Assembly (NCBI GenBank): GCA_041595375.1
Contig: JBFHKL010000001.1
Location: forward strand, 1 to 63,339
Source: Saccharicrinis sp.
GTDB lineage: Bacteria; Bacteroidota; Bacteroidia; Bacteroidales; Marinilabiliaceae
Direction: 5' to 3'
DNA: 63,339 nucleotides
In this document: one piece after another, positions 10,459 through 61,513 of the stretch
Numbering within the stretch: position 1 is the first letter of the stretch
Layout of the letters: every line of letters begins with the position of its first letter
Program-made: the position numbers and the translations under genes
Notes under the pieces: model-generated
Database searches by the model: none
What the model was told of the DNA's origin: nothing
What the model saw: only the letters and a program-made list of their open reading frames with translations

Positions 10459-13431
10459 ATGAAACAAATTTTAACTGCTATTATTTTTATGATATCAGTA
10501 TCTGTCTTTTCTCAAAACAAGACAATTACTGGTAAAATAACTGATGGCACTGGGCTACCTCTTGCTGGTGCAAACATAATAGAAAAGGGGACATCTAACG
10601 GTGCATTAACTGATTTTGATGGTAATTTCTCTATTACAGTGGCAAATCAAAATTCTATATTAAAAATTTCCTTTATTGGATTTTTGAACCAGGAAATATC
10701 AGTTCAAGGTAAAAATGTAATTAATATTACTTTGAAAGAAGACCTTGAAGCTCTCGATGAAGTGGTAGTAATTGGTTATGGAACCGTGAAGAAAAAGGAT
10801 TTAGTAGGTTCTGTTTCTGTCGTAGATACTAAAGAAGCTTTTTTGACACCAGTGTCCAACCCACAGAATGCGCTTCAAGGTAGAGCATCGGGTGTTCAAG
10901 TAACCTCATCTAATGGGTCACCAGGCAGTGCTCCGGAAATTATAATTCGTGGTGGTAACTCTATAACAGGGGGGAATGATCCTTTGTATGTAATCGATGG
11001 GTTTGTAGGAGCTGATAACATCGCTTCATTGAACCCTAATGATATTGAATCCATGCAAGTGTTAAAAGATGCTTCTTCAACAGCCATATATGGAGCTAGA
11101 GGAACAAATGGTGTAATAATCATTACAACAAAAAAAGGTAAAATAGGTAAGCCTGTTGTAAACTTTAGAGCGTCTTCTGGTATCCAAACGTTACCAAAGG
11201 AAATTGATGTGCAATCCACTCGTGAACTGGCTACGTGGTTTAACAACATTGCTCCAGACCAAACTAATTTACCATTTGATCTAAATGATCTTCCAGCAAC
11301 TGATACCAATTGGCAAAGGGAGTTGATAAGGGAAGCTGTTTTATCTGATTATCAATTGTCTGTTAGTGGGGGTACTGAGGCAGTAAAATATTATGTATCT
11401 GGAGGTGTTCTTTCCCAAGATGGTATTGTAAAAGGTTCTGGTTTTAATAGGTACAGTTTACGTTCCAATATTGATTTTAAGTTGTCAAAGACTTTTAAAG
11501 CAGGATTAAATTTATCCCTTTCAAGAACGGATAAAGATAATAATATGGTAAGTTTTACCCAGTTGCTAAGAGAAGATCCATCAAAGCCTATTTATGATGA
11601 TGAGGGGAATTATTTTATTGGTACTAATCCTATTCTTGGATCTGAAACGGGTCACTTGTTAGCTGATGCTTTATTAGATGAAGATACGGCTACTCTAGAT
11701 AAAATTTTTATAAATACTTATGTTCAGGGAGGTTTCTTTGATAATAAGTTAACATGGAAATCTACTTTTGGAGGAGACTTTGTGTATAACAAACGTCATC
11801 GCTTTACGCCTTCCACCAATCCTAGTTATATAATGAATGACAATCAATTGGCTAGAGCAATAATTAACAGATCCAATAATCAAGAATTTTTGAATGAAAA
11901 CACCCTTAACTATACGGAAACGTTTGGCGACCATTCTTTAAATATTTTAGCTGGTGCTTCGTTCCAGACCCAGAATAGTGAAAGTGTTCAAATAACGGCG
12001 GCCGATATACCAAGTGATGGTGTAGGTGTAAATGCTATTCAATTAGCACCGGCAGAAAGCGTTGGAATAACTTCTGATTATAGTGAAATTCATCAACTTG
12101 GTGTTTTTGGTAGAGTTAATTACATATATAAAGATAGATATATTTTCAATGCATCTCTAAGAAGAGATGGTAAGTCAAGCCTAGGAATCAATGAAAAGTA
12201 TTCAAACTTCCCGTCAGCATCAATTGCATGGAAAGTGAAAGAAGAATCTTTTCTTAAAGATGTAGATGCTATTAATGACCTTAAATTAAGAGTTAATTAT
12301 GGTAGAACTGGAAATTCAGGAGTAGCTGCTTTCAACACAATTGCTAACTATAGTATTGATAACAATACAATTATTGTAAATGGCGTAGTAGTTCCAGGTG
12401 TAACCCAAGGACAGATTGCAAAGCCAGATCTAGGATGGGAGATTACCGATCAATATGATGCAGGTCTTGAATTTTCTTTATTCAATAGAAGACTTTCTGC
12501 TGAGGTTGATGTTTACTATAAAGAAACGACAGATTTATTGTTAGCTGAAAATACAGTTGATTTTACAGGTGTTACAACGCTACTAACAAATATTGGAGCA
12601 GTTAAAAACAGAGGTATTGATGTAACCTTAAATGGAAAAATAGTTAAAACAGACAATTTTAAATGGGATGTTTCCTTGAGCGTCTCTACTTTTAAAAATG
12701 AAGTTTTGGATTTAGGACAAAGTACATTTCTTTCAACTAATAATTTAGGTGCTCCAGCTACGGATGAAGCTAGTAGACTAATGGTTGGCCAGCCTGTTGG
12801 TATATTCTGGGGTGCTAAATATTTAGGATTTGACCCTTCTACTGGCGATGCCATTTTTGAAGATTTAAGTGGTCCTGATGGGGTGCCAGATGGCATATAT
12901 AGTGAAGAATACGATGATCAAATTATAGGAAATGCCAACCCCGACTTTTTCGGAGGACTACAAACTAATTTTACGTATAAAAATTTCGATTTATCCGCAT
13001 TCTTTGCATTTAGTGTCGGTAATGAAAACTATAGTGAAGAATTTTTTCGTGTAAATGAAATTAGTGCAAATAGTTTTGCTTCAATCCGTAATAATATGTG
13101 GTCCGTAAATAATACGGAAAATGCAAAGTACCCTGCTTTTAATAGTGATAATTATGACCTTTCTAGTAGTTTATATGTACAAGATGCGAGTTATTTACGA
13201 TTAAGCACATTACAATTAGGGTATAATTTACCAAAGGATTTAATTAGTGGATTTGATAAACTTAGAGTTTATTTTACGGGTACGAACCTTTTCTTAGTTA
13301 AATCTAAAGATTACGTAGGTTTTGATCCAGATGTAAGCACAGGTGTGGCTAACAAACTTCAACGAGGTTTTGATGGTATAGCCTACCCACAAAACAGATC
13401 TATTCTTATTGGAATTGATGTTAGTTTCTAA
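10459..13431 (+). CDS. susC: SusC-like TonB-dependent transporter
   Basis: EVVVIGYG, PLYVIDG, DIESMQVLKDASSTAIYGARGTNGVIIITTKKG, C-terminal Phe. Confidence 0.97.
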   Translation: MKQILTAIIFMISVSVFSQNKTITGKITDGTGLPLAGANIIEKGTSNGALTDFDGNFSITVANQNSILKISFIGFLNQEISVQGKNVINITLKEDLEALDEVVVIGYGTVKKKDLVGSVSVVDTKEAFLTPVSNPQNALQGRASGVQVTSSNGSPGSAPEIIIRGGNSITGGNDPLYVIDGFVGADNIASLNPNDIESMQVLKDASSTAIYGARGTNGVIIITTKKGKIGKPVVNFRASSGIQTLPKEIDVQSTRELATWFNNIAPDQTNLPFDLNDLPATDTNWQRELIREAVLSDYQLSVSGGTEAVKYYVSGGVLSQDGIVKGSGFNRYSLRSNIDFKLSKTFKAGLNLSLSRTDKDNNMVSFTQLLREDPSKPIYDDEGNYFIGTNPILGSETGHLLADALLDEDTATLDKIFINTYVQGGFFDNKLTWKSTFGGDFVYNKRHRFTPSTNPSYIMNDNQLARAIINRSNNQEFLNENTLNYTETFGDHSLNILAGASFQTQNSESVQITAADIPSDGVGVNAIQLAPAESVGITSDYSEIHQLGVFGRVNYIYKDRYIFNASLRRDGKSSLGINEKYSNFPSASIAWKVKEESFLKDVDAINDLKLRVNYGRTGNSGVAAFNTIANYSIDNNTIIVNGVVVPGVTQGQIAKPDLGWEITDQYDAGLEFSLFNRRLSAEVDVYYKETTDLLLAENTVDFTGVTTLLTNIGAVKNRGIDVTLNGKIVKTDNFKWDVSLSVSTFKNEVLDLGQSTFLSTNNLGAPATDEASRLMVGQPVGIFWGAKYLGFDPSTGDAIFEDLSGPDGVPDGIYSEEYDDQIIGNANPDFFGGLQTNFTYKNFDLSAFFAFSVGNENYSEEFFRVNEISANSFASIRNNMWSVNNTENAKYPAFNSDNYDLSSSLYVQDASYLRLSTLQLGYNLPKDLISGFDKLRVYFTGTNLFLVKSKDYVGFDPDVSTGVANKLQRGFDGIAYPQNRSILIGIDVSF

Positions 13432-13461
13432 TTTAAATATTAACTATTAAAACTTTAAAAA

Positions 13462-15003
13462 ATGAAAAATAAATATTTAACCAAAGTTTTGATGATTGCC
13501 ATATTTGGTTTAACCATCAGTTGTAATAATTTTTTAGATGAAGATGCAAAAGGTTTATTAACCCCTGAAACATTCTTCAAAAATGAAGCTGAGGCAACTT
13601 TAGCCTTAAACAAGTTAAATGAGGAAGTAGGTAACGCAGGATTTCTTTTCTTCTTAGGAACCGATGTGGGAGTTTCAGGTAGAGTAAGCTTAGCGGCTGC
13701 ACATAAGTTTGGTGCTTACGATTTTGATGTGAGTGATAATCGACTTCTATGGGCAACTCAATATTCCACTATTAAAGATGCTAATCTAGTCTTGGCAAGT
13801 ATTGTGAAGTCCTCTTTGTCAGATGAGGTAAAAGGAAAGGTAACTGCTCAGGTACTTTTCTTTAGAGCCTTTCAGTATATAAATCTAGCTACTACTTATG
13901 GAGATGTACCTTATGTTGTCGATGAGTTGACTAACGTTGAAGAAGTTTCCTTAATCGGGCAAACAGATGATACTGTAGTTATTTCAGATATGATTCAAGA
14001 TTTGGATACAGCTATTAAATCTGGGTATTTATCTACGGGTACTTGGGGGGATAATGATGGAAGACCTACAGTTTGGGCTGCACGCATGTTAAAGGCGCAT
14101 GCTCATATTTGGTTGAAACAATGGGATGAAGCTCGTACAGAACTTATTGAAGTAACCACCAAATCTCCGCATCAATTACATGCTGATTACGCAGATAAAT
14201 ATAGAGAAGGACATGAAATTCATTCAGAGATTATTTTTGGCAAACAATATCTGCAGGATATATTAGGTAATATTAATACAGTAGCGCGCCCTAATCTTGC
14301 TGGAGATGCAAAGGCAAAGGCCTCTTTCGCAGAAGTTGGTGTTTCTAATGGGTCTGCACCTTTTACATTAAGAAAGAGTTTTGCCAATACTTATGATAAT
14401 AATGATAAAAGAAAAATTTATAATGTATGGGATAATTATACATTGATAGGTACAACAAAAGTCGTTCAATTCGCATGGACATATATGCCAAAACTTATGA
14501 GTGGACCTGTTCCTATTAGTGATCCTTTATTTGCAGTAGAAGAACCTGCAAATAATTCAAGTCAACCAAGCCGTATATTTTTATTAGCAGATGCCTATTT
14601 ATTACTTGCCGAAGCTGAGTTTATGATAAACGGATCTTCTCAAGCAGCTCTAAATGCCATCAATGCAATAAGAAAAAGAACAGGTTTACTAGACTACAGC
14701 TCTATAACAATTCAAGATATACGTAATGAACGTGCATGGGAGTTGTGTGGAGAAGGTTATTGGGGCAGAAAAAGAGATCTTATCCGATGGGGAATATTAG
14801 ATTCTACAATACTTGCCTTGCCAGCTGCTGAATTGGCTGCGGGAGCAACTGCAGAGGCTATAAAACGTGCGCAAGCAGAGGCTGATATTATTGCAAATGC
14901 TCCAGCAGGTAGATATACGCAATATCCAGTACCACTTGATGACCTTATTCAAAGTCAAACTATTGGTGGTAAATTGGTTCAAAACCCTTTATGGATAGAT
15001 TAG
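13462..15003 (+). CDS. susD: SusD/RagB-like glycan-binding lipoprotein
   Basis: Lipobox TISC, FLDE, YGDVP, ADAYLLLAEA, ERAWELCGEG; directly follows susC. Confidence 0.95.
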   Translation: MKNKYLTKVLMIAIFGLTISCNNFLDEDAKGLLTPETFFKNEAEATLALNKLNEEVGNAGFLFFLGTDVGVSGRVSLAAAHKFGAYDFDVSDNRLLWATQYSTIKDANLVLASIVKSSLSDEVKGKVTAQVLFFRAFQYINLATTYGDVPYVVDELTNVEEVSLIGQTDDTVVISDMIQDLDTAIKSGYLSTGTWGDNDGRPTVWAARMLKAHAHIWLKQWDEARTELIEVTTKSPHQLHADYADKYREGHEIHSEIIFGKQYLQDILGNINTVARPNLAGDAKAKASFAEVGVSNGSAPFTLRKSFANTYDNNDKRKIYNVWDNYTLIGTTKVVQFAWTYMPKLMSGPVPISDPLFAVEEPANNSSQPSRIFLLADAYLLLAEAEFMINGSSQAALNAINAIRKRTGLLDYSSITIQDIRNERAWELCGEGYWGRKRDLIRWGILDSTILALPAAELAAGATAEAIKRAQAEADIIANAPAGRYTQYPVPLDDLIQSQTIGGKLVQNPLWID

Positions 15004-15046
15004 GAAGTTTCAATCTTTAAAATTATTAATGATATAGTTATGAATG

Positions 15047-15089
15047 AATAAATGCGTTGAATTTTTAAGTGTTCAACGCATTTATTTTT
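15047..15089 (+). terminator. Intrinsic terminator/stabilising hairpin after susD
   Basis: 15-bp inverted repeat AATAAATGCGTTGAA/TTCAACGCATTTATT plus Ts. Confidence 0.75.
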
Positions 15090-15241
15090 ATAATTCTAAA
15101 ATTGTTTAAATGCCTAATGTTATAACTATTTAGTATACTAAGATTAATTATTTTGACACGTAATGATTCTTTTTTATATAGTAATAGCTACAGTTTAATT
15201 AATGGTTTTATTTGAATGATTCCACTATAATTTTTCACACA

Positions 15242-16735
15242 ATGAATAAATTACAATTAACCTTAGTCATTTTTTTGCTCTCGCATAGTATTATTTTTAG
15301 CCAGTCGGAAAGTGAAGAAATAAAACAAATTGAGCCCAATTGGGAATCCATGTCGGTAAACTATAAAGTTCCCGAGTGGTTAGTGGATGGTAAACTTGGG
15401 GTATGGTTTCACTGGGGTGTTCCTTCAGCTGTTTATGAGGATCGTCCACGGGACGGGTCTTGGTATGGCAGAAACATGTACGGAGGGGGAAAGAAAATGG
15501 CTCAGGAATTATCAGAGTGGCATATCAAAAGATATGGGCCTTTGGAGGAATTTGGTTATGAAAAACTAGTTCCCTTATTTAAAGCCGAAAATTGGGATCC
15601 AGATGCCTTAGTTGCTTTTGTGAAAGATAACGGTGCGCGTTTTATAATGCCCGTAGCAACTCACCATGATAATTTTGACATGTATGATTCTTCACATCCT
15701 TGGAATTCTGTGGGCATGGGACCCCATCGTGATGTGCTTGCCGAATGGAAAGCGGCCGCAAATAAGCATGGATTAAAGTTTGGTGTTTCAACACATCTAT
15801 ACTGGTCTCCTGGTTGGTGGGCGACTGCCCGTAAATATCAAAAAGAAGGTACTTTAGAATGGAAACTATTCAATATGGATTACGATCCTAAAAACTTTGC
15901 TAGTCAGGACAGTTGGAACCAACATTGGTATGCGCGTTGTTGGGAGATCATTGAAAAATATAATCCAGACATGTTCAATAACGATGCGCCTTTTCCTAAC
16001 GAAGATGGTGGTAAAGGCCTTGGGGTTAAACTTTTTTCAAATTATCTAAACCGAGATCTTAAGAAAAATAATGGAAAACAAACGGTGGTACTCTCATTAA
16101 AAGACAAAAATCTAGATCGTTCAGCTTTTACATATAACCTAGAAAGAGGTGGTGCTAATGAAATTAAACCACAACCTTGGCTATGGGCAACAGATCTTTC
16201 AGGTGATTGGTTTTATAATAAAAATTCTCCTGAGAAAATGAGCATCCCAGTTATGGTAAGTAATGCGATAGATGCCATAAGCAAAAACGGTATTGTTATG
16301 CTCAATATAGGTTTGAAAGGCGATGGAACTATACCAGAAAGACAACAAAGGTATTTAACTGCTTTTGGTGATTTTCTTAAGATTAATGGCGAAGGTGTGT
16401 ATGGTAGTCGTCCATGGAAGACTTTTGGAGAAGGTTTGCTAATAACTAAAGATGGTCGTCAAGGAGAAAACCATCTGGACTATTCCCAAGAAGATATTCG
16501 TTTTACAACCAAAGATGGATTTCTTTACGCATTTGTGCTTGCTCCACCTACGAAGAATATAGTTGTAAAAACTTTGGCAGATGGAGGCTTGCTTGATGAT
16601 AAGATTATAAAAATTCAATTAATGGGAAGTGATGAGAAGATTAAATGGACACGCACTAAAGAGGCACTTACCATTGTGTTGCCAAAAGAAATGCCAGGTA
16701 AAATCGTTAACGGATTTAAGATAACAATCAAATAG
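15242..16735 (+). CDS. GH29 alpha-L-fucosidase
   Basis: PNWESM...PEW, KLGVWFHWG, ATHHDNF, VMLNIG, GSRPW; start moved to the ATG of the MNKLQ signal peptide. Confidence 0.92.
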   Translation: MNKLQLTLVIFLLSHSIIFSQSESEEIKQIEPNWESMSVNYKVPEWLVDGKLGVWFHWGVPSAVYEDRPRDGSWYGRNMYGGGKKMAQELSEWHIKRYGPLEEFGYEKLVPLFKAENWDPDALVAFVKDNGARFIMPVATHHDNFDMYDSSHPWNSVGMGPHRDVLAEWKAAANKHGLKFGVSTHLYWSPGWWATARKYQKEGTLEWKLFNMDYDPKNFASQDSWNQHWYARCWEIIEKYNPDMFNNDAPFPNEDGGKGLGVKLFSNYLNRDLKKNNGKQTVVLSLKDKNLDRSAFTYNLERGGANEIKPQPWLWATDLSGDWFYNKNSPEKMSIPVMVSNAIDAISKNGIVMLNIGLKGDGTIPERQQRYLTAFGDFLKINGEGVYGSRPWKTFGEGLLITKDGRQGENHLDYSQEDIRFTTKDGFLYAFVLAPPTKNIVVKTLADGGLLDDKIIKIQLMGSDEKIKWTRTKEALTIVLPKEMPGKIVNGFKITIK

Positions 16736-16886
16736 TCAATCGGTTATGCTTATGTCTGATAAAAGAATCAGTTTTCCGTAAGCAATCATAAATAATTGTC
16801 TCCTTGAGCGCAGAGGAAAGGCTCGATCTGACATGAATTTTTTAATTATAATTGATTACGGATATTCAACTAAAGAATTTCTAAAA

Positions 16887-18665
16887 ATGAAAAAATCACA
16901 AAATACATTCAAAGTATTAGCCTTTCTTTTATTGGTAATACCAATAATATCATGGGCTCAAAATAGACCCAATGTAATTATTGTAATGACCGATGATCAG
17001 GGATTGGGGGATCTCTCTTGTATGGGAAATCCATATATCAAAACCCCAAATATCGATAAATTTTATACCGATGCGGTGCGTTTTACAAATTATCATGTAT
17101 CTACTACGTGTGCCCCTACTCGTGGCTCATTAATGACTGGCAGGCATACCAATCGTGTAAATGTATTTCATACCATTACGGGACGTTCGTTGCTTTTTGA
17201 AGATGAAGTGATACTTCCCCAAATTTTTGCTCAAAATGGCTACACAAATGGCATGTTTGGAAAATGGCATTTGGGGGATAATTATCCTTATCGTCCAGAA
17301 GATAGAGGATTCCATGAAGTAGTTCGCCATGGTGGAGGAGGAATTACCCAAGGACCTGACTATTGGGGGAATGATTATTTTGACGATACCTATTGGCACA
17401 ACGGGCAACCCCAAAGATACAATGGTTATTGTACTGATGTATTCTTTTCAGAAGCACTAAAATTTATTGAAATCAATAAAGATAAACCTTTTTTCTGTTA
17501 CATAGCTACCAATGCACCCCATGCGCCCTTAAACCTGCCAGAAAAATATTTTAATATTTATAAAGGAAATAACAATATTGAAGAGCATTTCCAAAGGTTT
17601 TATGGAATGATTACAAACATCGATGATAATTTTAAATTGCTGGAAAAGAAATTAGATGCTTTGAATTTAACAGATAATACTATTCTCATTTTTACAACCG
17701 ATAATGGTACCGCAGGGGGAAATAGAATATTTGATGCCGGATTGAAAGGTAGTAAAGGAAGTGTATATGAAGGTGGGCACCGGGTTCCATTATTTATTCG
17801 CTGGCCTAACGGAAAACTTACTGGTGGTAAAAATATAGACGAATTGGTAGCACATTACGATTTGTTGCCAACTTTTGTTGATTTGTTTGGTTTTGATTTC
17901 AACCCCGTTAAACCACTCGATGGAATGAGTTTGAAACCTTTGTTGTACGATACGAATCCGAATTGGGAAAATCGTATTCTATACATGGACACACAAAGGA
18001 TGCAAAACCTTATAAAGTATAGAACCTATACAGTTATGGATGAAAACTGGCGTTTGATAAATGGAAATGAATTGTACAATATGAATAATGACCTTAGCCA
18101 AACAAAAAATATCATAGAACAAAATCCAGAAGTGGCTGAACGTTTAAAAGTAGGGTATGAAAATTGGTGGCAATCCATCATGTCGGAAGGACCAAACGAA
18201 AGATATGGATACATAAAAGTTGGTTCGCCCAAAGAAAATCCTAGTAGAATTTCTGCCCACGATATGTTTACAGGGAGGCATTATGGTTCCTGGCATCAAG
18301 ACGGAGCAGTTAAAGGCGTTCCAGCTAGTGGAAGATGGAAAATTGAATTTGTTGAAGATGGAAAATATGCTATTTCGCTTCGTAGGTTTCCTAGAGAGAG
18401 TGGATTAGCTATTAATGAAACTTTTCCAGCGCAGGAAAAAAGAGTGGAATTGGGCAAAACGATGCCAGCAGCTGTGAAAACAGATTTTATTGAAGCCTAC
18501 TTGTATGTTGCCAATTTAGAGAAAGCAATAAAGATAGAGCCAGGGCAGGCAGAAGTAACCTTTATAGGAAATATTCCAGCCGGGAAATACGATATGGAAG
18601 CACAACTCACTGATAAAGACGGTAGGGTGCACCCGGCTTATTATGTTTATATAGAAAAATTATAA
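16887..18665 (+). CDS. S1 sulfatase with extra C-terminal domain
   Basis: PNVIIVMTDDQG, CAPTRGSLMTG, GKWHLG; start at the MKKSQ signal peptide. Confidence 0.95.
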   Translation: MKKSQNTFKVLAFLLLVIPIISWAQNRPNVIIVMTDDQGLGDLSCMGNPYIKTPNIDKFYTDAVRFTNYHVSTTCAPTRGSLMTGRHTNRVNVFHTITGRSLLFEDEVILPQIFAQNGYTNGMFGKWHLGDNYPYRPEDRGFHEVVRHGGGGITQGPDYWGNDYFDDTYWHNGQPQRYNGYCTDVFFSEALKFIEINKDKPFFCYIATNAPHAPLNLPEKYFNIYKGNNNIEEHFQRFYGMITNIDDNFKLLEKKLDALNLTDNTILIFTTDNGTAGGNRIFDAGLKGSKGSVYEGGHRVPLFIRWPNGKLTGGKNIDELVAHYDLLPTFVDLFGFDFNPVKPLDGMSLKPLLYDTNPNWENRILYMDTQRMQNLIKYRTYTVMDENWRLINGNELYNMNNDLSQTKNIIEQNPEVAERLKVGYENWWQSIMSEGPNERYGYIKVGSPKENPSRISAHDMFTGRHYGSWHQDGAVKGVPASGRWKIEFVEDGKYAISLRRFPRESGLAINETFPAQEKRVELGKTMPAAVKTDFIEAYLYVANLEKAIKIEPGQAEVTFIGNIPAGKYDMEAQLTDKDGRVHPAYYVYIEKL

Positions 18666-18677
18666 TTTTTTGGAACT

Positions 18678-20534
18678 ATGAAAAAATTAAATATAGACAA
18701 AATGTTAAATAAAACCTTACTCTTTTTAACAGTTCTAAGTTTATTCCAACTTGGTTGTCAAAATAAAAAAAATGTAGATGAAACGATTGATTATGTTACA
18801 GAAACAGTAGGGGACGTTGATTTTGGGAAAACAAAAATGTTGGACTATACTCCCGAAATTAGGGAGAACATGAAGCAATTGTATGAGGATAAGTTTGGCA
18901 TGTTTGTTCATTTTGGACCCTATGCACAACTCGCAGGAGATTGGAAGGGCAAAAAAGGTGCTGCGGAATGGATTATGAGACGTAGTTTTATACCTGTTGC
19001 CGAATATGAAAAAGAAGCTGCTGGGAAATTTAGACCTGAAAAATTCAATGCCAAGGAATGGGTGGATATTGCTGAAAATGCAGGGATGAAATTTATTGTA
19101 CTCACAGCAAAGCATCATGATGGATTCGCTATGTATAAATCCAAACACCCTTATAATTTGGTTGATTTTACAGGGTTTAACCGTGATATTTTAAAAGAGT
19201 TAGCCGAAGAATGTAAAGAAAGAGACATGAAGTTAGGCTTTTATTATTCACAGGATCAAGATTGGCATGAAAAAGGTGGTGCCGGTAATGATTGGGATTT
19301 TGGGAGTGTCATAAAACCAGCCGATGAATTTGACGCCTATTTCAAAGAAAAGGCGGTAATGCAAATACAGGAGCTAACTACAAATTATGGCGATATTTTT
19401 ATGGTTTGGTTTGATACCCCTTTTCAAATTACTGATGAACAAAGCCAAATGATGATGGATGTTGTTAAAGAAAACCAACCGGGAGCATTAGTGAATGCAC
19501 GACTAGGTAATGGTTACGGACATTTTGATGTATCGATTGATAACGGTACAACACCAAGCGTTAGTAAATCAACCTGGTTGCCAGATTTAAAAGTGCCGTG
19601 GCAAACGCATGAGTCGGTTACAAAAGATGGATGGGGCTATACCTCACGTGGCGCCGAACTGGATCGTTCTGAAGATTATTCAGATTTTATTTATAGTCTT
19701 TGCCGAATTGTTGGCAATGGAGGTGTGTATTTGTTAAACGTGGCACCTCGCCCTGATGGAACCATTCCAGAATCACAAGTAAACAGTATTAATGCTATTG
19801 GAGAATGGCTAAAAGTAAATGGGGAAGCCATTTATGGAGCCGACCCAAGTCCATTAAAGTTTCCGCCTTATGCCATAACTAGTAAACCGGGTAAAGTATA
19901 TCTTCATGTGAAAGATTGGGAAGACAACCAAATAGCATTGAATGGATTATTATCCAAAGTCTCTAACGCTTATTGTTTAAGTGATGCTTCAAAGCAACCC
20001 ATGACTTTTACCCAAAAAAATGAAAAATTGACTGTGACAGTACCAAAGACATTAAAACAACCCAGAGTTACAGTAGTGGTATTGGAAATTGAGGATAAAG
20101 AAGCTAAGGTAATCGATGAGAAGATTCAACAAGACAAGGACGGAAGTATTAAACTACCGGTTTCAAAATGCGAATTTGCGATTAGAAGAATCAGTTATGA
20201 TTATGACAAACAAGTGACGGTACGTTGGGGCGAAAACACCAAGCAAGGTTTAATTTGGACCGTAAATATAACTCAGCCAGGTACTTTCAAAGTGATTAGT
20301 GAAGATAATGGAAACGAAGATTTTATTTACACACTGGTTACACCAAAGAATTCGTTGGATTTGAATGCCAAAGGAACTATTGGTAAAATGACCAAAAAGA
20401 AACAAGAAGGAAGTATTCAGTTAGACCAAGCGGGTATTTACCAAATTAAGGTTTATCCAAAGGTTATCACAACCAAAGCAACTAAGCAAAGCTATATGTT
20501 TAAAGGATTAGAGTTGGTTCCATTAAAGTTATAG
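18678..20534 (+). CDS. GH29 alpha-L-fucosidase lipoprotein with C-terminal beta-sandwich
   Basis: Lipobox QLGC, KFGMFVHFG, TAKHHDGF, VWFD, LLNVAP. Confidence 0.93.
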   Translation: MKKLNIDKMLNKTLLFLTVLSLFQLGCQNKKNVDETIDYVTETVGDVDFGKTKMLDYTPEIRENMKQLYEDKFGMFVHFGPYAQLAGDWKGKKGAAEWIMRRSFIPVAEYEKEAAGKFRPEKFNAKEWVDIAENAGMKFIVLTAKHHDGFAMYKSKHPYNLVDFTGFNRDILKELAEECKERDMKLGFYYSQDQDWHEKGGAGNDWDFGSVIKPADEFDAYFKEKAVMQIQELTTNYGDIFMVWFDTPFQITDEQSQMMMDVVKENQPGALVNARLGNGYGHFDVSIDNGTTPSVSKSTWLPDLKVPWQTHESVTKDGWGYTSRGAELDRSEDYSDFIYSLCRIVGNGGVYLLNVAPRPDGTIPESQVNSINAIGEWLKVNGEAIYGADPSPLKFPPYAITSKPGKVYLHVKDWEDNQIALNGLLSKVSNAYCLSDASKQPMTFTQKNEKLTVTVPKTLKQPRVTVVVLEIEDKEAKVIDEKIQQDKDGSIKLPVSKCEFAIRRISYDYDKQVTVRWGENTKQGLIWTVNITQPGTFKVISEDNGNEDFIYTLVTPKNSLDLNAKGTIGKMTKKKQEGSIQLDQAGIYQIKVYPKVITTKATKQSYMFKGLELVPLKL

Positions 20535-20566: not shown

Positions 20567-22159
20567 ATGAATTTAACTATGGGGACAAATTTTAAAATTT
20601 TTATTTTGGAAATAATTGTCCTTGTCAATTTTAACTCTTTTGCACAAGAACATTTGGCTTCTCAAAGAGTAATTCATGCAGATTGGGCACCAAAAGTGAT
20701 CCAACTTCGCCCCGATGATATCACAACAATTATGGGATTCAGAGCACAACTTACTGGCAACCTGAATCATTTAGACCGACCAACACCAGCGGTTGTCAAT
20801 AACGCGTTTATCCGAGGCTTTTATAACGAAAATGATGTTATGACTTGGGAGGTAGAAGCACCTTTTACTGCCAATTATACCATTGCCCTTTTATATACTG
20901 CAAGCAAAGAAATCCTTTCGGGTAGCACTATAGAAATAAGTTCGGGAAAAACCAAAATTGTTGAAAAAGCCCTAGTGCCTAATTGGAATACCAGACCAGG
21001 AGTTTTGCGACATTTTTTGAAACAAAACTTACCGCTACACAAGGGGATTAATAAAATTAGTTTTCGATTAGTCGGTTTTTCAAAAGTTAAATTGAATGCC
21101 GAAAATGCTGAAGTTGATGCTGCTGCTAATTTAAAACCAAGTCCTTTTGCACTCTGGTCTATAGAGTTAGTACAGCCCAATACGCTTATTGCCATAAAAG
21201 AACGTGCCCAATCGATGAAAGCTGATGTACAATGGATGGTTGACGGCAAATATGGTTTGTTTGTCCATTTTTCCTCGCTTTCAAAACCATTTAATGGAGG
21301 ACCAAGTTTAGGAAATCAATATCAAAATTTAGTAGATAAATTTGATGTTGATGCCTTTGTGGCCTCGGTTGTAGAGACGGGTGCTTCTTGGGTAACCTTT
21401 ACATGTGCTCATGGGACACAACATTGGCCTGGGCCAAGCGAGACCATCGATAAATTAAAACCAGGATTTACGTGCAAACGCGATTTGATACGCGAATTAA
21501 TTGATGGATTAAAAAAATACAACATCAAATTGATGCTGTATTACAATCCCAACAGCGGAATGGAAGATTTGTATGGAAATATTTATGGCAATAGTGGTAC
21601 TCCAGACGCAACGGGATATTTTAATTTTTTGGAATCTCATTTTAGAGAAGTAAGCCTTCGATATGGAAAAGATTTAGCTACAACCGCAGGCTATATTGAT
21701 GATTGCGGATGGAAAGTCTATCAATATGATGCTCCTTGGGAGAAATTAGCGAAAGCAATAAAATCAGGAAATCCAAATGCTCTAATTGGTTTTAGCCAAA
21801 ATATATTTCCAAATCTTACTCCTTTTAGTGATCTTGTGGTTTCGGATGGATCGGGCAGAGTACCAGAAATTCAGCCTGATTTTTTGTTTGAAAAAGGCGG
21901 ACAATTAGAAGGACAATATCCTGCCAGCTGGTTTTATATGGACGGCTGGTCTAGCAGAACTGGTAATGGCGTTTTTACGGCCAAACCAAAATTTTCAGCA
22001 GAACAATATATCGAAATTTTTAAAAATGCCGAAAAAGCCAAAATGCCTATAACAATTAATTTAGCGATGACTCCAGACGTAACCAAAGAGCATCCTTTCT
22101 TTAATCCAGAATGTATTGAAATTATGAAACAAGTCCGTAAAGCAGTTAAAGGATATTAA
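20567..22159 (+). CDS. Divergent GH29/GH107-like TIM-barrel glycosidase with N-terminal CBM-like domain
   Basis: KYGLFVHF, FDVDAFV, RDLIREL, LMLYY, SLRYGK, AIKSGNPNALIGF; lacks KHHDGF and DxTFGH. Confidence 0.6.
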   Translation: MNLTMGTNFKIFILEIIVLVNFNSFAQEHLASQRVIHADWAPKVIQLRPDDITTIMGFRAQLTGNLNHLDRPTPAVVNNAFIRGFYNENDVMTWEVEAPFTANYTIALLYTASKEILSGSTIEISSGKTKIVEKALVPNWNTRPGVLRHFLKQNLPLHKGINKISFRLVGFSKVKLNAENAEVDAAANLKPSPFALWSIELVQPNTLIAIKERAQSMKADVQWMVDGKYGLFVHFSSLSKPFNGGPSLGNQYQNLVDKFDVDAFVASVVETGASWVTFTCAHGTQHWPGPSETIDKLKPGFTCKRDLIRELIDGLKKYNIKLMLYYNPNSGMEDLYGNIYGNSGTPDATGYFNFLESHFREVSLRYGKDLATTAGYIDDCGWKVYQYDAPWEKLAKAIKSGNPNALIGFSQNIFPNLTPFSDLVVSDGSGRVPEIQPDFLFEKGGQLEGQYPASWFYMDGWSSRTGNGVFTAKPKFSAEQYIEIFKNAEKAKMPITINLAMTPDVTKEHPFFNPECIEIMKQVRKAVKGY

Positions 22160-22187: not shown

Positions 22188-23357
22188 ATGAAAAAAACAA
22201 AAGTTCTGATAACGCTATTATTCTGTGTGATTTTGACAGGATTTAACGCTGCTGTTTCACAAACATTATATAAAAACAGTGATGGAAGTACCTTTGTGGC
22301 CAAAGATTTTTATCCAAAATTTAGTTGGGAAACAACGCCGCAGTATTTTATGTTTCAAGATTTGAGGCGCTTGTTAACTCCTGATGAAGTTGCATTTATT
22401 GCCCGACGTACCGATTTTATTTGTATCGAAAAATCACATGCAAAAGGACAATTAGGAGCTGCTGAATTAGGGGCTAAAGAGGAGGCTAAAGCGTTTAAAA
22501 AAGCGAATCCGAATATTAAAGTGCTGTTTTATTTTAACGCTGCCTATGCTTGGACCTATACATCGTACACCAAAGATTTTTCTGAGAAAGGCTTAAGTAA
22601 ACACCCTGAACTAAAAAAGTTTTTGATTACTAATGCAAAAACAGGAAAGTTAGCAGAACACTTTGGCGCTTATTGTTATGATTTATTAAATCCTGAATTC
22701 CGTGACTGGTGGGTGGAAACGGTTGCCAAAGGAGTAAGAGAATCGGGTTGTGATGGGGTCTTTATCGATCAAATGCATGGAAATAGTAAGTTTCGTCCAA
22801 ATGACAAACCCGAAATTGAAATTGCTATGGGGCAAATGATGAAAGCACTTAAAGAGAAATTAGGCGCAGAAAAAATACTATTGGGCAATAACGCTAATAA
22901 TGAAGACGCGAGATTTGTGTATCCTGTTTGTGATGCTGTAATGTTTGAAAACTATTCAGAGACTCGATTTACTAAAGAAAGTTTGCTTAAGGAGTGGGGA
23001 GATATGCTAAAAAATGCGAAAGAAGGAAAAATATCCGTTTTCCGTCTGGGTGTTGATGGAGCAGGAAGAGGAAACATCAAACCGAATATGCCTGAGCTGT
23101 CCAAAGAAAAGTTAGAGTTTGCCCAGGCTTGTTATTTAATTGGTGCAGAACCTTACTCGTATTTTATGTACAGTTGGGGATGGAAATTGAATACAGGGCC
23201 TTTGGTAGATTATCCTGAATTGCAAAAGCCTTTGGGAGCACCAAAAGGAGCCTATAAAAGAATTAAACCTGATGCTTGGGAGTTTACTCGTGAATTTGAA
23301 CATGCTAGTGTTTGGGTGAATACAGAAACAAGAGAAGCTAAAATTTCATGGAAATAA
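22188..23357 (+). CDS. GH168 endo-fucanase
   Basis: FYPKFSWETTP, FICIEKSH, VLFYFN, DGVFIDQMHG, MFEN, KPLGAPKG, FTREFEHASVWV, as in FunA-type GH168 proteins. Confidence 0.85.
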   Translation: MKKTKVLITLLFCVILTGFNAAVSQTLYKNSDGSTFVAKDFYPKFSWETTPQYFMFQDLRRLLTPDEVAFIARRTDFICIEKSHAKGQLGAAELGAKEEAKAFKKANPNIKVLFYFNAAYAWTYTSYTKDFSEKGLSKHPELKKFLITNAKTGKLAEHFGAYCYDLLNPEFRDWWVETVAKGVRESGCDGVFIDQMHGNSKFRPNDKPEIEIAMGQMMKALKEKLGAEKILLGNNANNEDARFVYPVCDAVMFENYSETRFTKESLLKEWGDMLKNAKEGKISVFRLGVDGAGRGNIKPNMPELSKEKLEFAQACYLIGAEPYSYFMYSWGWKLNTGPLVDYPELQKPLGAPKGAYKRIKPDAWEFTREFEHASVWVNTETREAKISWK

Positions 23358-23387: not shown

Positions 23388-26042
23388 ATGACTATAAAAT
23401 ACAGACTTATTTCTTTTGTGCATCACTTGCTAATGGTGATGATTTTTAATGCCACTTTTTTTGTCGTTGCTCAAGATGTAACGAACACTGATAGAGCAAC
23501 AAAAACCTTACGCCTTTGGTATGACAAACCTACACCAGATAATGATAAAGGTTGGGTAAATCGTTCAATCCCAATGGGGAATGGTTATATGGGGGTTAAT
23601 GTTTTTGGAGGTATCACCACCGAGAGAATCCAAATTACAGAGAATAGTCTATACGATTGGGGAGAAGACAGCGGACTTAAACGTAGAGGACTGAACAATT
23701 TTGCGGAGGTTTATATCGATTTCAACCACAAGAACACCAAAGGATACAAACAAGAACTAAACCTAAATAAAGGTGTTTCGTATGTGGAATTTGAAGAAGA
23801 GGGAGTAAAATATTCAAGAGAATACTTTACCAGTTATCCCGATAAAGTGATGGCGATTCGTTTAAGTGCATCTAAAAAAGGAAAAGTATCCTTTACACTT
23901 CGCCCTAAGATTCCTTTTTTAGGAGTTGGAAAATCAGGCGCTGTTTCAGCTAAAGGGGATGTCATTACGCTTTCGGGAATGATGAATTATTACAAGATAA
24001 AGTTTGAAGGGCAGTTCAAGGTCATTCCACAAGGAGGTACTATGAAAGCAACAAATAACGGAACGATTACGGTTGCTGATGCAAACAGTGCTGTCATTTT
24101 GATAGCCATTGGAACCAATTATAAGCTCGATTCTCAAGTTTTTTTGACCGAAGATCCCGCTAAAAAGTTAGCTGGTTTTCCTGATCCTCATGATAAGGTA
24201 TCAAATTATTTAAAAGTAGCTTCGGCTAAGCCGTATGACAAATTGTTGGCCAATCATTTGGCTGATTATAAGATACTTTATAACCGTGTAAATTTTGACC
24301 TGGGTGCAGCTGAACCCACAATCCCTACTAATGAATTGGTAGATGGGTATCCTACGGGTAAATCAAGTAAATATCTGGAAGAACTTGCGTTTCAGTATGG
24401 ACGTTATATGCTTATTTGCTCTTCCAGAAAGGGGACGCTTCCACCACATTTACAAGGAATTTGGAATGTATATGAGAAAGCTCCATGGTCGTCTCAATAT
24501 TTGCACGATACCAATGTACAAATGGCGTATGCGCCTGTTTTCTCGGCTAATTTACCCGAGTTATTTGAGTCGTATGTCGATTATTTTAAAACCTTTGAAC
24601 CCAGACAACGTTTATATGCTACGGAGTACATTAAGCAATATAACAAAACACAATTAGATTCTAAAGGAAATAATGGTTGGTCAGGACCATTCTGGAGCAG
24701 TCCTTACACGGTTCCAGGCAAATCACCAGTTGCTGGTTTTGGTACCGGTTCTTGGATTGGACTGCTGTTTTGGGATTATTACGATTTCACTCGTAATGAG
24801 TCGTTGTTAGCAAATAAAGTGTATCCAGTACTTTATGAGCAAGCTAATTTTGTGTCTCGATTCGTAACAAATACCAATGGCGTGTTATTAGCCAATCCCT
24901 CTTCAAGTCCAGAACAAAAAATCCGAAACACGGTGGGTACTACTTTTGACCAACAGATGTTTTATGAGAATCATCACAATACGGTAAAAGCCGCTGAAAT
25001 ATTAAAGAGATCCGATAGCAGATTAGCAACCTATAAAAGTCAATTACCTCTTTTAGATCCTATTCAGATTGGAAAATCAGGACAGATTAAAGAATTCCGA
25101 CAAGAGAATTATTTTGACGACATGGGGGATCCCAACCATCGTCATGCTTCCATGTTGTTAGGGTTATATCCAGGGCAATTGATAAATGACAAAACACCAG
25201 CTTGGCTCGATGCAGCCAAAGTGAGCTTGTTGAAACGAGATCATAAAACCAATATTGGATGGGCACGTGCGGAGCGAATTGCCATGTGGGCTCGAGTACA
25301 TGATGGAGATGAGGCCTATTCCTACTACAAAGAATTATTGGGAGAAAACTACATGCACAACCTGTTCAACGATCATCGTGGCGACCCGTTGTTCCAAGCC
25401 GATGCGAATTATGGTGCCACTGCTGGTGTAGCCGAGATGTTGTTACAGAGTCATGATTATGTAATAGCGCCACTTACTGCTTTGCCAAAGGAATGGTCAA
25501 CAGGTAGCTATAGCGGACTCTTGGCACGTGGTAATTTTGAAGTTTCGGCAAAGTGGTCCAAGGGACAAGCTGATGCGTTTACGGTATTGTCTAAATCAGG
25601 AGGAACTTTAGCATTTAGGTATCCAAATGTTGCTAAAGCAATGATTAAAACAGCCGAAGGTAAGAAAGTTGATTTTAAAGCTAAGGATAGTGACCATATC
25701 AGTATCAAAACCGTAGCTGGGCAAACGTATGTAATTAATGCCATTCCTGAATATGTACCTGTGATGGCACCCTCAAAATTAAAAGTGGAGAGTAATTTGG
25801 CAGAGAATCAAATTCAGCTTTCTTGGAGCGAAAGTAATGATGCCGTTTCTTACAATGTTTATCGTGCCGTGGGTAACGCAGCAGACTATGAACAACTAGC
25901 TTCGAAAGTGAAAGAGACTAATTTTGTTTATAAAGCTACTGATTTAAAACAAACAAGCCAGATGACATTCAAGGTCACTACAGTACGTGCCGATGGAAGA
26001 GAGAGTAAAGAGGGAGCTACCACAATTTGGTTGTTGCCGTAA
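23388..26042 (+). CDS. GH95 alpha-L-fucosidase with C-terminal FN3 domain
   Basis: LWYDKP, PMGNGYMG, FQYGRY, LQGIWN, HRHAS, FQADANYG, EMLLQSH, GLLARG. Confidence 0.93.
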   Translation: MTIKYRLISFVHHLLMVMIFNATFFVVAQDVTNTDRATKTLRLWYDKPTPDNDKGWVNRSIPMGNGYMGVNVFGGITTERIQITENSLYDWGEDSGLKRRGLNNFAEVYIDFNHKNTKGYKQELNLNKGVSYVEFEEEGVKYSREYFTSYPDKVMAIRLSASKKGKVSFTLRPKIPFLGVGKSGAVSAKGDVITLSGMMNYYKIKFEGQFKVIPQGGTMKATNNGTITVADANSAVILIAIGTNYKLDSQVFLTEDPAKKLAGFPDPHDKVSNYLKVASAKPYDKLLANHLADYKILYNRVNFDLGAAEPTIPTNELVDGYPTGKSSKYLEELAFQYGRYMLICSSRKGTLPPHLQGIWNVYEKAPWSSQYLHDTNVQMAYAPVFSANLPELFESYVDYFKTFEPRQRLYATEYIKQYNKTQLDSKGNNGWSGPFWSSPYTVPGKSPVAGFGTGSWIGLLFWDYYDFTRNESLLANKVYPVLYEQANFVSRFVTNTNGVLLANPSSSPEQKIRNTVGTTFDQQMFYENHHNTVKAAEILKRSDSRLATYKSQLPLLDPIQIGKSGQIKEFRQENYFDDMGDPNHRHASMLLGLYPGQLINDKTPAWLDAAKVSLLKRDHKTNIGWARAERIAMWARVHDGDEAYSYYKELLGENYMHNLFNDHRGDPLFQADANYGATAGVAEMLLQSHDYVIAPLTALPKEWSTGSYSGLLARGNFEVSAKWSKGQADAFTVLSKSGGTLAFRYPNVAKAMIKTAEGKKVDFKAKDSDHISIKTVAGQTYVINAIPEYVPVMAPSKLKVESNLAENQIQLSWSESNDAVSYNVYRAVGNAADYEQLASKVKETNFVYKATDLKQTSQMTFKVTTVRADGRESKEGATTIWLLP

Positions 26043-28862: not shown

Positions 28863-31800
28863 ATGATTAAAAAACTACCAAGAAACATTAATCCAATTTT
28901 ACTATTTCAAATGCTACTGGCCTGTAGCTTCGTTTTACATAGTAATTTAGGTTACTCTCAGGTTTACTTTGATGAATCTGCGCCCTATTTAGTGAAATCA
29001 ATAGAAGGAGCTGCAACTTGGACTAAGGACGTTTCAACTGGTGATTTTATTTATAATAACGGAGGTACAGTATATACTCAGCGTGCTATGCTTTATTCTG
29101 CTGCTGCCTATCAATCGAACGATGGGTTTAAGTTGACTATTGAATATACCACTGGATCCATTGATGATACTGCTGCACATAATTTTTCATTTGGTCTTAT
29201 TAGCGACGAGACTGATTTAGCTGCTTATTCAGGCTTCAATCCCTTCAAGACAGAAACATCAGTTTATAGTATTGGAGCCAACCTTACCACCGATGACGAT
29301 ATAACAGCCAGAGGATTAAATTTTACAAACGGTACGTCACGGCTTACCTTAGATCAGTCAGGTTCAAGAGCTCAATTTGCAACAAGAGCTACTACTAAAG
29401 TTACTATTGAGATTGGTATTGGAGGCTATTGGTCGTATCGTATTAACGATGTTTATGAGGCATCAGGAGTTTTAGTAAATGGAATTGATTTGACCAAAAG
29501 TTATCAGGTTGCCATTTATGGTCAAGATGATAATGGAGGCGGAAAGTCCATTCAATCTATTAAATTAGAAAAAAGATATGCTGCGGGTGAACGTGCACCG
29601 CATTTGAAAGGAACTTGGAATTCAGAGATAGATGTTGATTTATTAGATGATAGGATAAAGAATCTTAAAACACTAGATCGTATTGGAGTTACTTTTACAA
29701 ATGGAGCCGTATTATCTGCACAACATTATGCGCCCCATAAATTATTTGATATGCTCGCAGGAGGAGATGCTGTAGCTCCAGCCTGGGGCAATTTAAATTC
29801 AGATACTCCTCAAAATGATAAAATGTTGACCGATATTTTAAAAATAAAAGCGGCTGGATTTAATGTGAAAGCCTATACAAATTCGGAAAATTTTGTGGGG
29901 ACAAATGAAGCTTCACTTCAACCGTTTGTTGATAGTTGGATAGCCTATTGCGATACAAATCCCGAGATTCAGGCTTTTATCAATAGCCAGCCTTATCATA
30001 CTGGTATATGGAATGTCACTACCCAACAATACGAAGATGCAACAGCTACTTATCCATTGCGAAAATACATGTTTTGTTATGCTGAATATTTTCTGAAAGA
30101 CTACGCATTGCGTTATGGTAAGTATTTTGATTCCTGGATTTTTGATTCGGGTAATACGATGGAAAGCAATGGCGATAATGCAAAAAGTGGTCTATTGGAG
30201 GAGCAAAGGATTTACCAAGCTTTTGCCAATGCGGTACATGCAGGTAATCCTGAAATACCTATAGCTTTTAATAACGGTAGAAGTACTGTAAATTATAATG
30301 CATTTCCTTATGCAATTCCTACTCGATTTGATGATTTTACCTTTGGTCACGCTTTTGGAGGAAATAACGATCACGCTAGTAAAACGGGTGGTCAATTTGC
30401 TAACAATTACAATTATATTAGTCGTATGACGGCAACTGATGGGGCAGTACATTCTGGCGGAAATTGGACTTGGGACGACAAAATAGTAGGAAATTTTCAT
30501 TCTAAGTTATCCACTACGGCTTGGAAATATGGTGCTACGCAAGCATGGGAACAAGATGATTTTAATCAGTGGAATTTAGAGGCGATGAAAGCAGGTGGTT
30601 CTATGACATGGGGTGGTTCCTATAATAGAGATGTAACAGCTATTTATGATTGGGTGTATGTTTTATTAGTAGGCATGGATAATTATTTGGCAGCAAACGA
30701 AAATCCAGGAGCACCCAACTGGGCAAGAGCGCATACTATTTTACCTGAGGCTTTTACAGGACAGTCTTATTCACACAAATTAAGAGAAGGAATTGATTTT
30801 TGGGATCCAGAAGGAGATGCCATGGCGCTTATTGCTTTAGATAATTTTCCTTCGTGGTTATCAATTTCCAAAATAGCCGATGGGGTTTGGGAATTAAGTG
30901 GTACACCCACTGAGACTACAAATTCGAGTTACGAATTTAATTTGCAAGCAAGTGATGCTTCAGGCGGAACTAATAGAATAGTAAATCTAAATGTTTTGGA
31001 CTCTAATGCTATTCAAGTTTCTGGGGTTGCTATTTCAAAAAACAATGCTTATTTAATTAAAGATGAAACTCTAATACTTAGCGCTGTCGTAAGTCCGATA
31101 AATGCAGTTAATAAAAACATAATTTGGAGCAGTAGTGCACCTACTATTGCTATTGTTGATTCAAATGGATCAGTTAAAGGGCTGGCTGTGGGTAACGCAA
31201 TCATATCGGCTACTACAGAGGATGGTGGTTTTGTTAGTAGCTGTATGCTAACAGTTGTCGATGGGACAAATTTTAATCTTGCTCTAATGGGAACAGCTAC
31301 TCAGTCATCGACAGATTTTGGAGCAGTTGCCAGCCGAGCAATTGATGGGAATACGGATGGTACTTTTGGTAATGGTTCTGTAACACATACTTTAACAGAA
31401 GTAAATCCATGGTGGCAAGTTGATTTAGGTTATGAAACAACTATAGGCACAATTAAGCTTTTTAATAGACTGGGCTCTAATTACACTAGATTATCTAATT
31501 ACACTCTTAGTATCTATAACGCAAGTGGAGTTCCAGTATATTCGGAAACCTTTGCTGAAGCCCCGAATTTAACTACATCCATCAATGTTGGGGGAGTGAG
31601 GGGACAAATTGTAAAAATCCAGTTAAACAACACAAATCCGTTATCATTGGCAGAAGTAGAAGTTTATAAAGAATCTAATTTATCAGTAAATAAAATCACT
31701 GAAAAAAATATAATATTTTATCCAAATCCAGCAAAGGATGTTTTGAATTATGATTTAAAAGAGGGGGGTAGATTTACTCATTTGGTAATTTATTCTATAT

Positions 31801-60261: not shown

Positions 60262-60347
60262 ATTGACTTATCTTTTAGTTCTAATTATTGTCCTGATAAA
60301 TATTTTGGAAAAAGAAGGCTCTTGTCATTTTTGCGTAAAGAGGGTTA

Positions 60348-61502: not shown

Positions 61503-61513
61503 TATTTTATTAT

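What the first reader, a model, noticed from the sequence alone, without database searches (positions are those of the whole stretch)
20567..22159. Unclassified GH29/GH107-like enzyme: candidate new fucanase family
Seen: signal peptide, a ~170-aa beta-sandwich (WEVEAPFTANYTIALLY...LHKGINKISF), then a barrel. The barrel starts GH29-like (KYGLFVHF, FDVDAFV, RDLIREL, LYY) and continues GH107-like (SLRYGK, AIKSGNPNALIGF). It has CAHGTQH in place of GH29 KHHDGF, GYIDD in place of WxD, and SDLVVSD where the two GH107s here carry DxTFGH with the catalytic His. Known: GH29 and GH107 form clan GH-R. Inference: a clan-related enzyme with a different acid/base residue, sitting between GH29 and GH168 genes in a fucoidan operon.
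Basis: partly seen in the sequence, partly recalled or inferred. Interest (0 to 1): 0.8.

Follow-up and report, generated by a model that had tools for sequence, protein, structure and literature searches.

The report
Ortholog of crystallised fucoidan fucosidase FucWf4
This gene encodes a protein 75% identical over its whole length to FucWf4, an already studied and crystallised seaweed-fucoidan fucosidase, so it likely trims terminal fucose from fucoidan fragments and is an ordinary new member of a known, if unusual, branch of GH29 enzymes rather than a new family.

Summary
The ORF (20567-22159, 530 aa), all 11 quoted motifs and the fucoidan-locus setting are real. It is not unclassified. It is 75% identical over 520 aa to Wenyingzhuangia fucanilytica ANW96106.1. 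That protein is FucWf4, listed as releasing terminal alpha-1,3/1,4 fucose from sulfated fuco-oligosaccharides and solved as PDB 9PNJ/9PNK, 'GH29-like fucosidase FucWf4', the latter with fucose (Z 56, rmsd 1.3 A). Its structural reading holds: Asp378 aligns with the clan nucleophile, and Asp427 aligns with the GH107 catalytic His. Asp427 is Asp in 83 of 86 close homologs and Glu in 109 of 127 wider ones, so it is the likely acid/base (inferred). An Asp acid/base has GH29 precedent (AlfC, human FucA1). The N-terminal sandwich has a CBM6/CBM35 fold. What stays open: FucWf4 sits in a large, mostly unstudied lineage (366 clusters at E<=1e-30) that forms a third group beside GH29 and GH107, resembles both, and lacks GH29's Glu-Trp loop. 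Verdict: new member of a known kind, low interest.

The parts
20567..22159 (+). FucWf4-type GH29-like alpha-L-fucosidase gene, 530 aa (an alternative start at Met5 gives 526 aa)
20567..20644 (+). Likely Sec signal peptide, residues 1-26, predicted cleavage A26|Q27; no lipobox Cys; no T9SS tail on the protein
   Evidence: hydropathy; NCBIfam; SignalP not run
20663..21175 (+). N-terminal jelly-roll of CBM6/CBM35 fold, residues about 33-203; sugar binding untested
   Evidence: 9PNJ Z 25.3; CBM35 of 3ZM8 Z 13.7, rmsd 2.6, 121 aligned; CBM6 8J3X Z 12.8. E 4e-5 to GH31/CITase proteins
21215..22156 (+). (beta/alpha)8 catalytic barrel, residues about 217-530, with no C-terminal sandwich
21266..21268 (+). 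His234, equivalent of GH29 His34 (fucose O4), 82 of 86
21410..21412 (+). His282, equivalent of GH29 His129 (fucose O2), 84 of 86; the His128 position is Ala281
21698..21700 (+). Asp378, inferred catalytic nucleophile (end of beta4); 84 of 86 close and 127 of 127 wide homologs
21845..21847 (+). Asp427, inferred general acid/base; Asp 83 and Glu 2 of 86; Glu 109 and Asp 16 of 127; aligns with the GH107 catalytic His
18678..20534 (+). Upstream classical GH29 (lipoprotein-type N-terminus), 32 bp before the target
22188..23357 (+). Downstream GH168 endo-fucanase, 28 bp after the target. In W. fucanilytica the GH168 FWf5 is AXE80_07365, the locus tag next to AXE80_07370
23388..26042 (+). GH95 fucosidase of the same co-oriented run
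10459..18665 (+). SusC, SusD, GH29 and sulfatase genes of the same fucoidan utilisation locus

Best explanation
The gene encodes an ortholog (75% identical, full length) of W. fucanilytica FucWf4 and is likely a periplasmic, retaining exo-alpha-L-fucosidase that removes terminal alpha-1,3/1,4-linked fucose from sulfated fucoidan oligosaccharides. Steps: (1) shown: it lies in a run of SusC/D, sulfatase, GH29, GH168, GH95, GH141 and GH107 genes. (2) Inferred: endo-fucanases cut fucoidan and SusC/D import the fragments. (3) Inferred: the signal peptide, with no lipobox or T9SS tail, puts the enzyme in the periplasm, where it alternates with sulfatases. (4) Inferred from alignment: Asp378 attacks fucose C1 to form a fucosyl-enzyme, and Asp427 protonates the leaving group and then activates water. 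His234, His282, Tyr325, Tyr376, Phe232 and Trp461 hold the fucose as in GH29. The missing His128 and Glu-Trp loop are likely replaced by other residues. (5) Untested: the CBM6/35-fold domain binds substrate or shapes the positive subsites.
For: Identity: 389/520 to P0014, which is ANW96106.1 / AXE80_07370. The PDB chain is the His-tagged form of it. Foldseek titles: 9PNJ 'GH29-like fucosidase FucWf4', 9PNK 'in complex with fucose', released 2025-11-05; Z 56.0, rmsd 1.3 A, 488 aligned. Supplement of PMC11189522, row 222: ANW96106.1, FucWf4, non-clustered, active on alpha-1,3/4 terminal L-fucose in sulfated fuco-oligosaccharides (main text). F232, H234, H282, Y325, Y376, D378, D427 and W461 are identical in the target and FucWf4. 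Context: 18 of 19 close-clade loci have a GH29/95/141/168/107 neighbour within 8 kb, and 19 of 19 when sulfatases are counted. An Asp acid/base is known in AlfC and FucA1.
Against: The primary assay paper (Silchenko 2022) is not held, so the activity comes from a secondary table. That table does not list pNP-fucoside for FucWf4 although it does for FucWf1-3. No paper on 9PNJ/9PNK was found. I could not see the coordinates, so the catalytic geometry is unmeasured. Three GH29 fucose-binding residues (His128, Glu66, Trp67) have no counterpart by alignment. A 25% sequence difference could shift linkage or sulfate preference.
Confidence: 0.85

Rival explanations
1. The protein, and FucWf4, would be mainly an endo- or oligosaccharide-releasing fucanase, or an enzyme that removes a sulfated or branch fucose. 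The -1 site would be open at O3 because the GH29 Glu-Trp loop is missing, and the exo activity would be a side activity.
For: An EW pair occurs in the beta1 loop of 12 of 214 family barrels, against 20 of 23 parsed GH29s (of 32); the loop is about 23 against about 46 residues. The barrel is as near GH107 MfFcnA (Z 24.4) as most GH29s (Z 22-26.7). pNP-fucoside is not listed. It carries a CBM-fold domain. GH141 was long assumed exo and proved endo in this same bacterium (PMC12786026, passages).
Against: The only listed activity of the ortholog is release of terminal fucose. The depositors call it a fucosidase and solved it with fucose. It has no T9SS or lipoprotein anchor, unlike the window's GH107s. 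Profiles are much closer to GH29 (E 5e-26) than to GH107 (E 9e-12).
Confidence: 0.1
2. The acid/base would be another residue (D379, D459, or one on a mobile loop, as proposed for AlfC), with D427 only structural.
For: D459 is conserved too (83 of 86; E62/D48 of 127). Acid/base residues align poorly across GH29A (PMC10154630, passage). The GH29 profile alignments did not place D427 cleanly.
Against: D379 varies (65 of 86; 54 of 127). Position 427 is a carboxylate in 125 of 127 wide homologs and aligns with the GH107 catalytic His. It also matches the D-x4-E spacing seen in GH29 sequences in the supplement (DFGTPE, DFKAPE).
Confidence: 0.12
3. The gene would be a non-catalytic or degenerate GH29 derivative that only binds fucan.
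For: It has lost three canonical fucose-binding residues and scores weakly on Pfam, over part of its length only.
Against: Both catalytic carboxylates are nearly invariant, and the ortholog is listed as active.
Confidence: 0.02

Closest known systems
FucWf4 of Wenyingzhuangia fucanilytica CZ1127 (ANW96106.1, AXE80_07370; PDB 9PNJ, 9PNK)
   Same: 75% identity over 520 aa, same two-domain layout (rmsd 1.3 A over 488 residues), identical predicted active-site residues, GH168 gene next door.
   Different: 25% of residues, mostly in the signal peptide, the N-terminal domain and surface loops; GYIDDC against GYIDDG. This protein has not been assayed.
Classical GH29 alpha-L-fucosidases (GH29A/B: TmFuc, BT2970, AlfB, AlfC, TfFuc1)
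   Same: Barrel (Z up to 26.7, rmsd 2.8 A, 277 aligned); Asp nucleophile; His34, His129, Tyr171 and C6-pocket aromatics kept; Pfam PF01120 above cut-off.
   Different: 14-21% identity; no His128 and no Glu-Trp loop; N-terminal CBM6/35-fold domain and no C-terminal sandwich; separate clade in the tree; non-clustered in the published GH29 network.
GH107 endo-fucanases (MfFcnA 6DLH/6DMS, P5AFcnA 6M8N)
   Same: Barrel (Z 24.4, rmsd 3.0 A, 287 aligned); nucleophile Asp and beta6 motif in register; RYG and GNPNA segments.
   Different: Asp427 in place of the catalytic His; about 15% identity; no T9SS/Ig modules; the ortholog is exo-acting.
CBM6/CBM35 modules (3ZM8, 2VZP, 8J3X)
   Same: Jelly-roll fold, Z 12-13.7.
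   Different: 15-17% identity; Cry domain III and GH115 sandwiches score about the same, so the fold shows no ligand.

Membership tests
FucWf4-type GH29-like fucosidases (proposed subfamily GH29C) | Full-length high identity to FucWf4 | tested here: met
   389/520 identical; accession link
FucWf4-type GH29-like fucosidases (proposed subfamily GH29C) | Same fold and domain order as 9PNJ/9PNK | tested here: met
   Z 56.0, rmsd 1.3 A, 488 aligned; TM 0.90/0.97
FucWf4-type GH29-like fucosidases (proposed subfamily GH29C) | FucWf4 is the enzyme on which GH29C was proposed | tested here: inconclusive
   PMC11796335 says GH29C was suggested in Silchenko 2022 without naming the enzyme; FucWf4 is that paper's non-clustered GH29. 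The explicit statement in the 2022 abstract is recalled; paper not held
FucWf4-type GH29-like fucosidases (proposed subfamily GH29C) | Release of terminal fucose from sulfated fuco-oligosaccharides | not testable with these tools
   needs assay; listed for the ortholog only
GH29 (broad, CAZy) | Scores above the family profile cut-off | tested here: met
   Pfam PF01120 41.9 bits against 25.2, residues 257-400 only; dbCAN not available
GH29 (broad, CAZy) | (beta/alpha)8 barrel with Asp nucleophile at the end of beta4 | tested here: met
   D378 follows strand 372-377 and aligns with WxD
GH29 (broad, CAZy) | Carboxylate acid/base (Glu or Asp) after beta6 | tested here: met
   by alignment only: D427, carboxylate in 125 of 127; Asp precedent
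GH29A/B (classical subfamilies) | His-His pair plus Glu-Trp loop binding fucose O2/O3/O4 | tested here: not met
   A281 at the His128 position; EW segment falls in a gap
GH29A/B (classical subfamilies) | Groups with classical GH29 sequences | tested here: not met
   separate clade, support 0.995 against 1.0 (15 GH29 rows from the window and loci, no known GH29B); non-clustered in the published network
GH107 | His acid/base in the DxTFGH motif | tested here: not met
   Asp427 at that position; His294 role from PMC11943901 passages
GH107 | Family-level sequence similarity | tested here: not met
   no phmmer hit at E<=10; profile E 0.015; separate clade
GH174 / GH187 | Similarity to Fun174A or Fun187A | not testable with these tools
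   no dbCAN and no reference sequences fetched; made unlikely by the 75% match to FucWf4
CBM35 / CBM6 | Jelly-roll fold | tested here: met
CBM35 / CBM6 | Family profile score and carbohydrate binding | tested here: inconclusive
   no Pfam hit for the target domain; 14 of 40 homologs touch CBM_35 at E<=1, best 7.6e-4; binding not testable

The most novel reading that the evidence does not exclude
FucWf4 and this protein are the Asp-bearing, fucoidan-specialised tip of a large third lineage of the GH29/GH107 clan: 366 clusters at 50% identity with E<=1e-30, mostly Glu acid/base, often with an N-terminal CBM6/35-fold domain, and lacking the Glu-Trp loop. It merits its own family and links exo GH29 to endo GH107 (Glu to Asp or His at one position). 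Some members, such as the 35% paralog that sits beside it in 5 of 19 loci, would cut sulfated, branched or internal fucose linkages that no known fucosidase handles.
Probability: 0.3. Interest if true: 0.5.

Novelty: new member of a known kind. Interest (0 to 1): 0.2.

Why it matters
For this gene, little: it adds one more ortholog of a characterised, crystallised enzyme and fits the standard fucoidan pathway. The useful residue is a testable catalytic pair (D378/D427; FucWf4 D368/D417), for which I found no paper in the held library. There is also a map of a large uncharacterised sister lineage that Pfam lumps with GH29. Fucoidan breakdown limits marine carbon turnover and defined fucoidan-trimming enzymes are wanted as tools, so the paralogs and Glu-type members are better targets than this protein.

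Tried and rejected
New family with no characterised member: rejected. GH107 membership: rejected. NCBIfam gave nothing useful. Literature on the structure: '9PNJ' 0 papers, 'AXE80_07370' 0 (10), 'ANW96106' 0 in main texts (32), 'GH29-like'+fucoidan+fucosidase 0 (58), 'FucWf4' 1 (57), 'FucWf5' 1 (21). Subscription papers are mostly not held, so a structure paper may exist. Silchenko 2022 and Vickers 2018 were not held. The idea that the bridging signal is only profile depth was tested: nine subsamples of 6-13 sequences (Neff 2.3-3.2) still hit GH107 at E 6e-7 to 4e-11, while the GH29 profile (Neff 3.7) gave E 0.25. The GH107 side had only 4 sequences. The tree used 61 selected rows, left out GH29B, GH151 and GH168, and has no root, so it gives no order of events. 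Cry-toxin domain III hits of the N-terminal domain are a shared jelly-roll fold at 8-13% identity and were dismissed. Earlier scan findings: none. No expression data or complex prediction was run.

Full report
Observation. An AlphaFold2 model on an 86-row alignment (mean pLDDT 90.6, pTM 0.88) shows an N-terminal helix (likely signal peptide, hydropathy), a beta-sandwich at about 33-203 and a TIM barrel at about 217-530. The window holds SusC/SusD pairs, six sulfatases, five classical GH29s, one GH95, three beta-helix (GH141-type) proteins and a hybrid two-component sensor. The next gene is a GH168 (E 5e-148 to 8YA6). The genes at 28863 and 39194 are GH107s. The description is accurate.

Identity. 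The PDB sequence search gave one full-length hit, 9PNJ/9PNK, at E 5.7e-271; the other 12 hits had E 2e-7 or weaker and were partial. The chain is a His-tagged form of P0014, which is ANW96106.1 / AXE80_07370 of Wenyingzhuangia fucanilytica and is 389/520 identical to the target. Foldseek names the entries 'Crystal structure of the GH29-like fucosidase FucWf4' and the same 'in complex with fucose', released 2025-11-05. The structural match is Z 56.0, rmsd 1.3 A over 488 residues. The supplement of PMC11189522 lists ANW96106.1 as FucWf4, non-clustered in the GH29 network, active on alpha-1,3/4-linked terminal fucose in sulfated fuco-oligosaccharides, citing Silchenko 2022 (section 6). pNP-fucoside is listed there for FucWf1-3 but not FucWf4. 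PMC11796335 says that the same 2022 paper suggested a subfamily GH29C. That FucWf4 is its founding member is my inference plus recall of the abstract; the paper is not held. In W. fucanilytica the adjacent locus tag AXE80_07365 is the GH168 FWf5, matching the gene order here.

Active site, by alignment only. Against the GH29 residue table in PMC11796335, profile alignments map F232 to Phe32, H234 to His34, H282 to His129, Y325 to Tyr171, Y376 to Trp222, D378 to the nucleophile and W461 to the C6-pocket aromatic. The TmFuc numbering of Tyr171 within its YY pair is recalled. The His128 position is Ala281, and the Glu66-Trp67 loop falls in a gap. An EW pair occurs in that loop in 12 of 214 family barrels against 20 of 23 parsed GH29s (32 examined). 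SDLVVSD aligns in register with GH107 DDYTFGH, which puts D427 opposite the catalytic His (His294 role from passages of PMC11943901). The GH29 profiles aligned less cleanly at this spot. In 86 close homologs D378 is kept in 84 and D427 in 83. In 127 wider homologs with a near-complete barrel (of 147 new representatives), D378 is kept in 127 and position 427 is Glu in 109 and Asp in 16, while D379 is kept in only 54. So D378/D427 is the likely catalytic pair. An Asp acid/base is known in AlfC and human FucA1. The N-terminal domain, folded alone, matches CBM35 and CBM6 modules at Z 12-13.7, with Cry domain III and GH115 sandwiches at similar scores. That fixes the fold but not a ligand.

Distribution. 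89 homologs were found among 7998 scored candidates, in Bacteroidota, Planctomycetota and Verrucomicrobiota. Of 43 genome loci, 18 of 19 close-clade loci and 18 of 23 distant ones have a GH29/95/141/168/107 neighbour within 8 kb, labelled by BLASTP to the window's proteins; L043 was left out as too weak. Five of the 19 close loci carry a second paralog at about 35% identity. Among 60 relatives of the window's genome only one, in the same genus (1 of 22), had a match at E<=1e-30. That patchiness fits a mobile specialist locus. The window's genome (83% complete) has one strong copy.

Place in the clan. The profile finds 366 clusters at E<=1e-30 and 1323 at E<=1e-10 among 1.84 billion representatives; the weaker bands may include ordinary GH29s. 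Nineteen of 20 sampled members pass the Pfam PF01120 cut-off, mostly with low scores. A 61-row tree gives three groups: classical GH29 (support 1.0), GH107 (1.0) and this lineage (0.995). The Asp-type clade (1.0) is nested among Glu-type members. The lineage profile hits GH29 at E 5e-26 and GH107 at E 9e-12, while GH29 against GH107 gives E 0.25; shallow subsamples keep the GH107 signal. Structures agree: Z 26.7 to AlfB, 24.4 to MfFcnA. It rests on 4 GH107 and 32 GH29 sequences without known GH29B, and the tree is unrooted. A common origin of GH29, GH107, GH151 and GH168 is already in print (PMC12534559).

Mechanism. Most likely (0.85) it is a periplasmic retaining exo-alpha-L-fucosidase that works with sulfatases on imported fucoidan fragments. 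Orthology, fold and context are shown. Localisation, catalytic roles and activity of this protein are inferred. An endo or sulfated-fucose activity (0.1) is not excluded, given the missing loop, but the ortholog's listed activity and its fucose complex speak against it.

Papers seen. PMC11189522: passages, section 6 and supplement searches (supplementary file 1 was unreadable). PMC11796335: passages and section 16. PMC10154630, PMC10778895, PMC11943901, PMC12786026, PMC11685898, PMC12534559, PMC13380512: passages. PMC13668718: abstract and passages. Silchenko 2022 and Vickers 2018: not seen. No paper describing 9PNJ/9PNK was found, but most subscription journals are not held.

Verdict. New member of a known kind; interest 0.2. 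The boldest reading left open is that the wider lineage is a separate family bridging GH29 and GH107, with untested specificities (probability 0.3, interest 0.5).

Noticed in passing
window 8550-10307 and 32780-34570: Two FucWf1-like GH29 paralogs, 75% identical. The first has non-conservative changes at three positions near the active site where the second copy and FucWf1 agree (YYW for YYS, DTL for DTP, DMV for DME), suggesting a decaying or re-specialised duplicate, or sequence errors.
   Followed up: partly
window 39194-41599: GH107 very close to MfFcnA (E 2e-296) with a T9SS tail and an unannotated region of about 200 aa (residues 520-730).
   Followed up: partly
window 28863-31934: GH107 with an unannotated N-terminal region of about 240 aa, Ig domains, a fucolectin-like module (E 5e-24 to 3LE0) and a T9SS tail.
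   Followed up: partly
window 38025-38975: 316-aa T9SS-secreted protein with no Pfam domain besides the tail; it resembles by eye the unannotated region of the neighbouring GH107.
   Followed up: no
window 45070-45933: SGNH-like protein with a twin-arginine-type N-terminus between a GH29 and a sulfatase; candidate fucoidan deacetylase (Pfam E 6e-4 only).
   Followed up: no
L009:6368-7924, L013:3908-5476, L015:1213-2922, L018:4216-5781, L019:3374-4960: A second paralog at about 35% identity (GY[MV]DGA; FSE[LM]xVTD in four of the five) lies within 8 kb of the FucWf4-type gene in 5 of 19 loci, which suggests a second specificity.
   Followed up: partly
L019:7827-11255, L026:7080-9377, L028:4851-9431: Fusions of the FucWf4-type module to DUF5060/collagen-binding domains, to a BD-FAE esterase and to a beta-helix enzyme.
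   Followed up: partly
L027:2424-5419: Two tandem distant members (25-27% identity; one with the Glu-type QDYFAGE motif) right after susC/susD and near an Asp-type member in Arenibacter echinorum.
   Followed up: partly
window 59260-62833: Minus-strand FGGY kinase, iron alcohol dehydrogenase and fructose-bisphosphatase, probably part of fucose catabolism.
   Followed up: no
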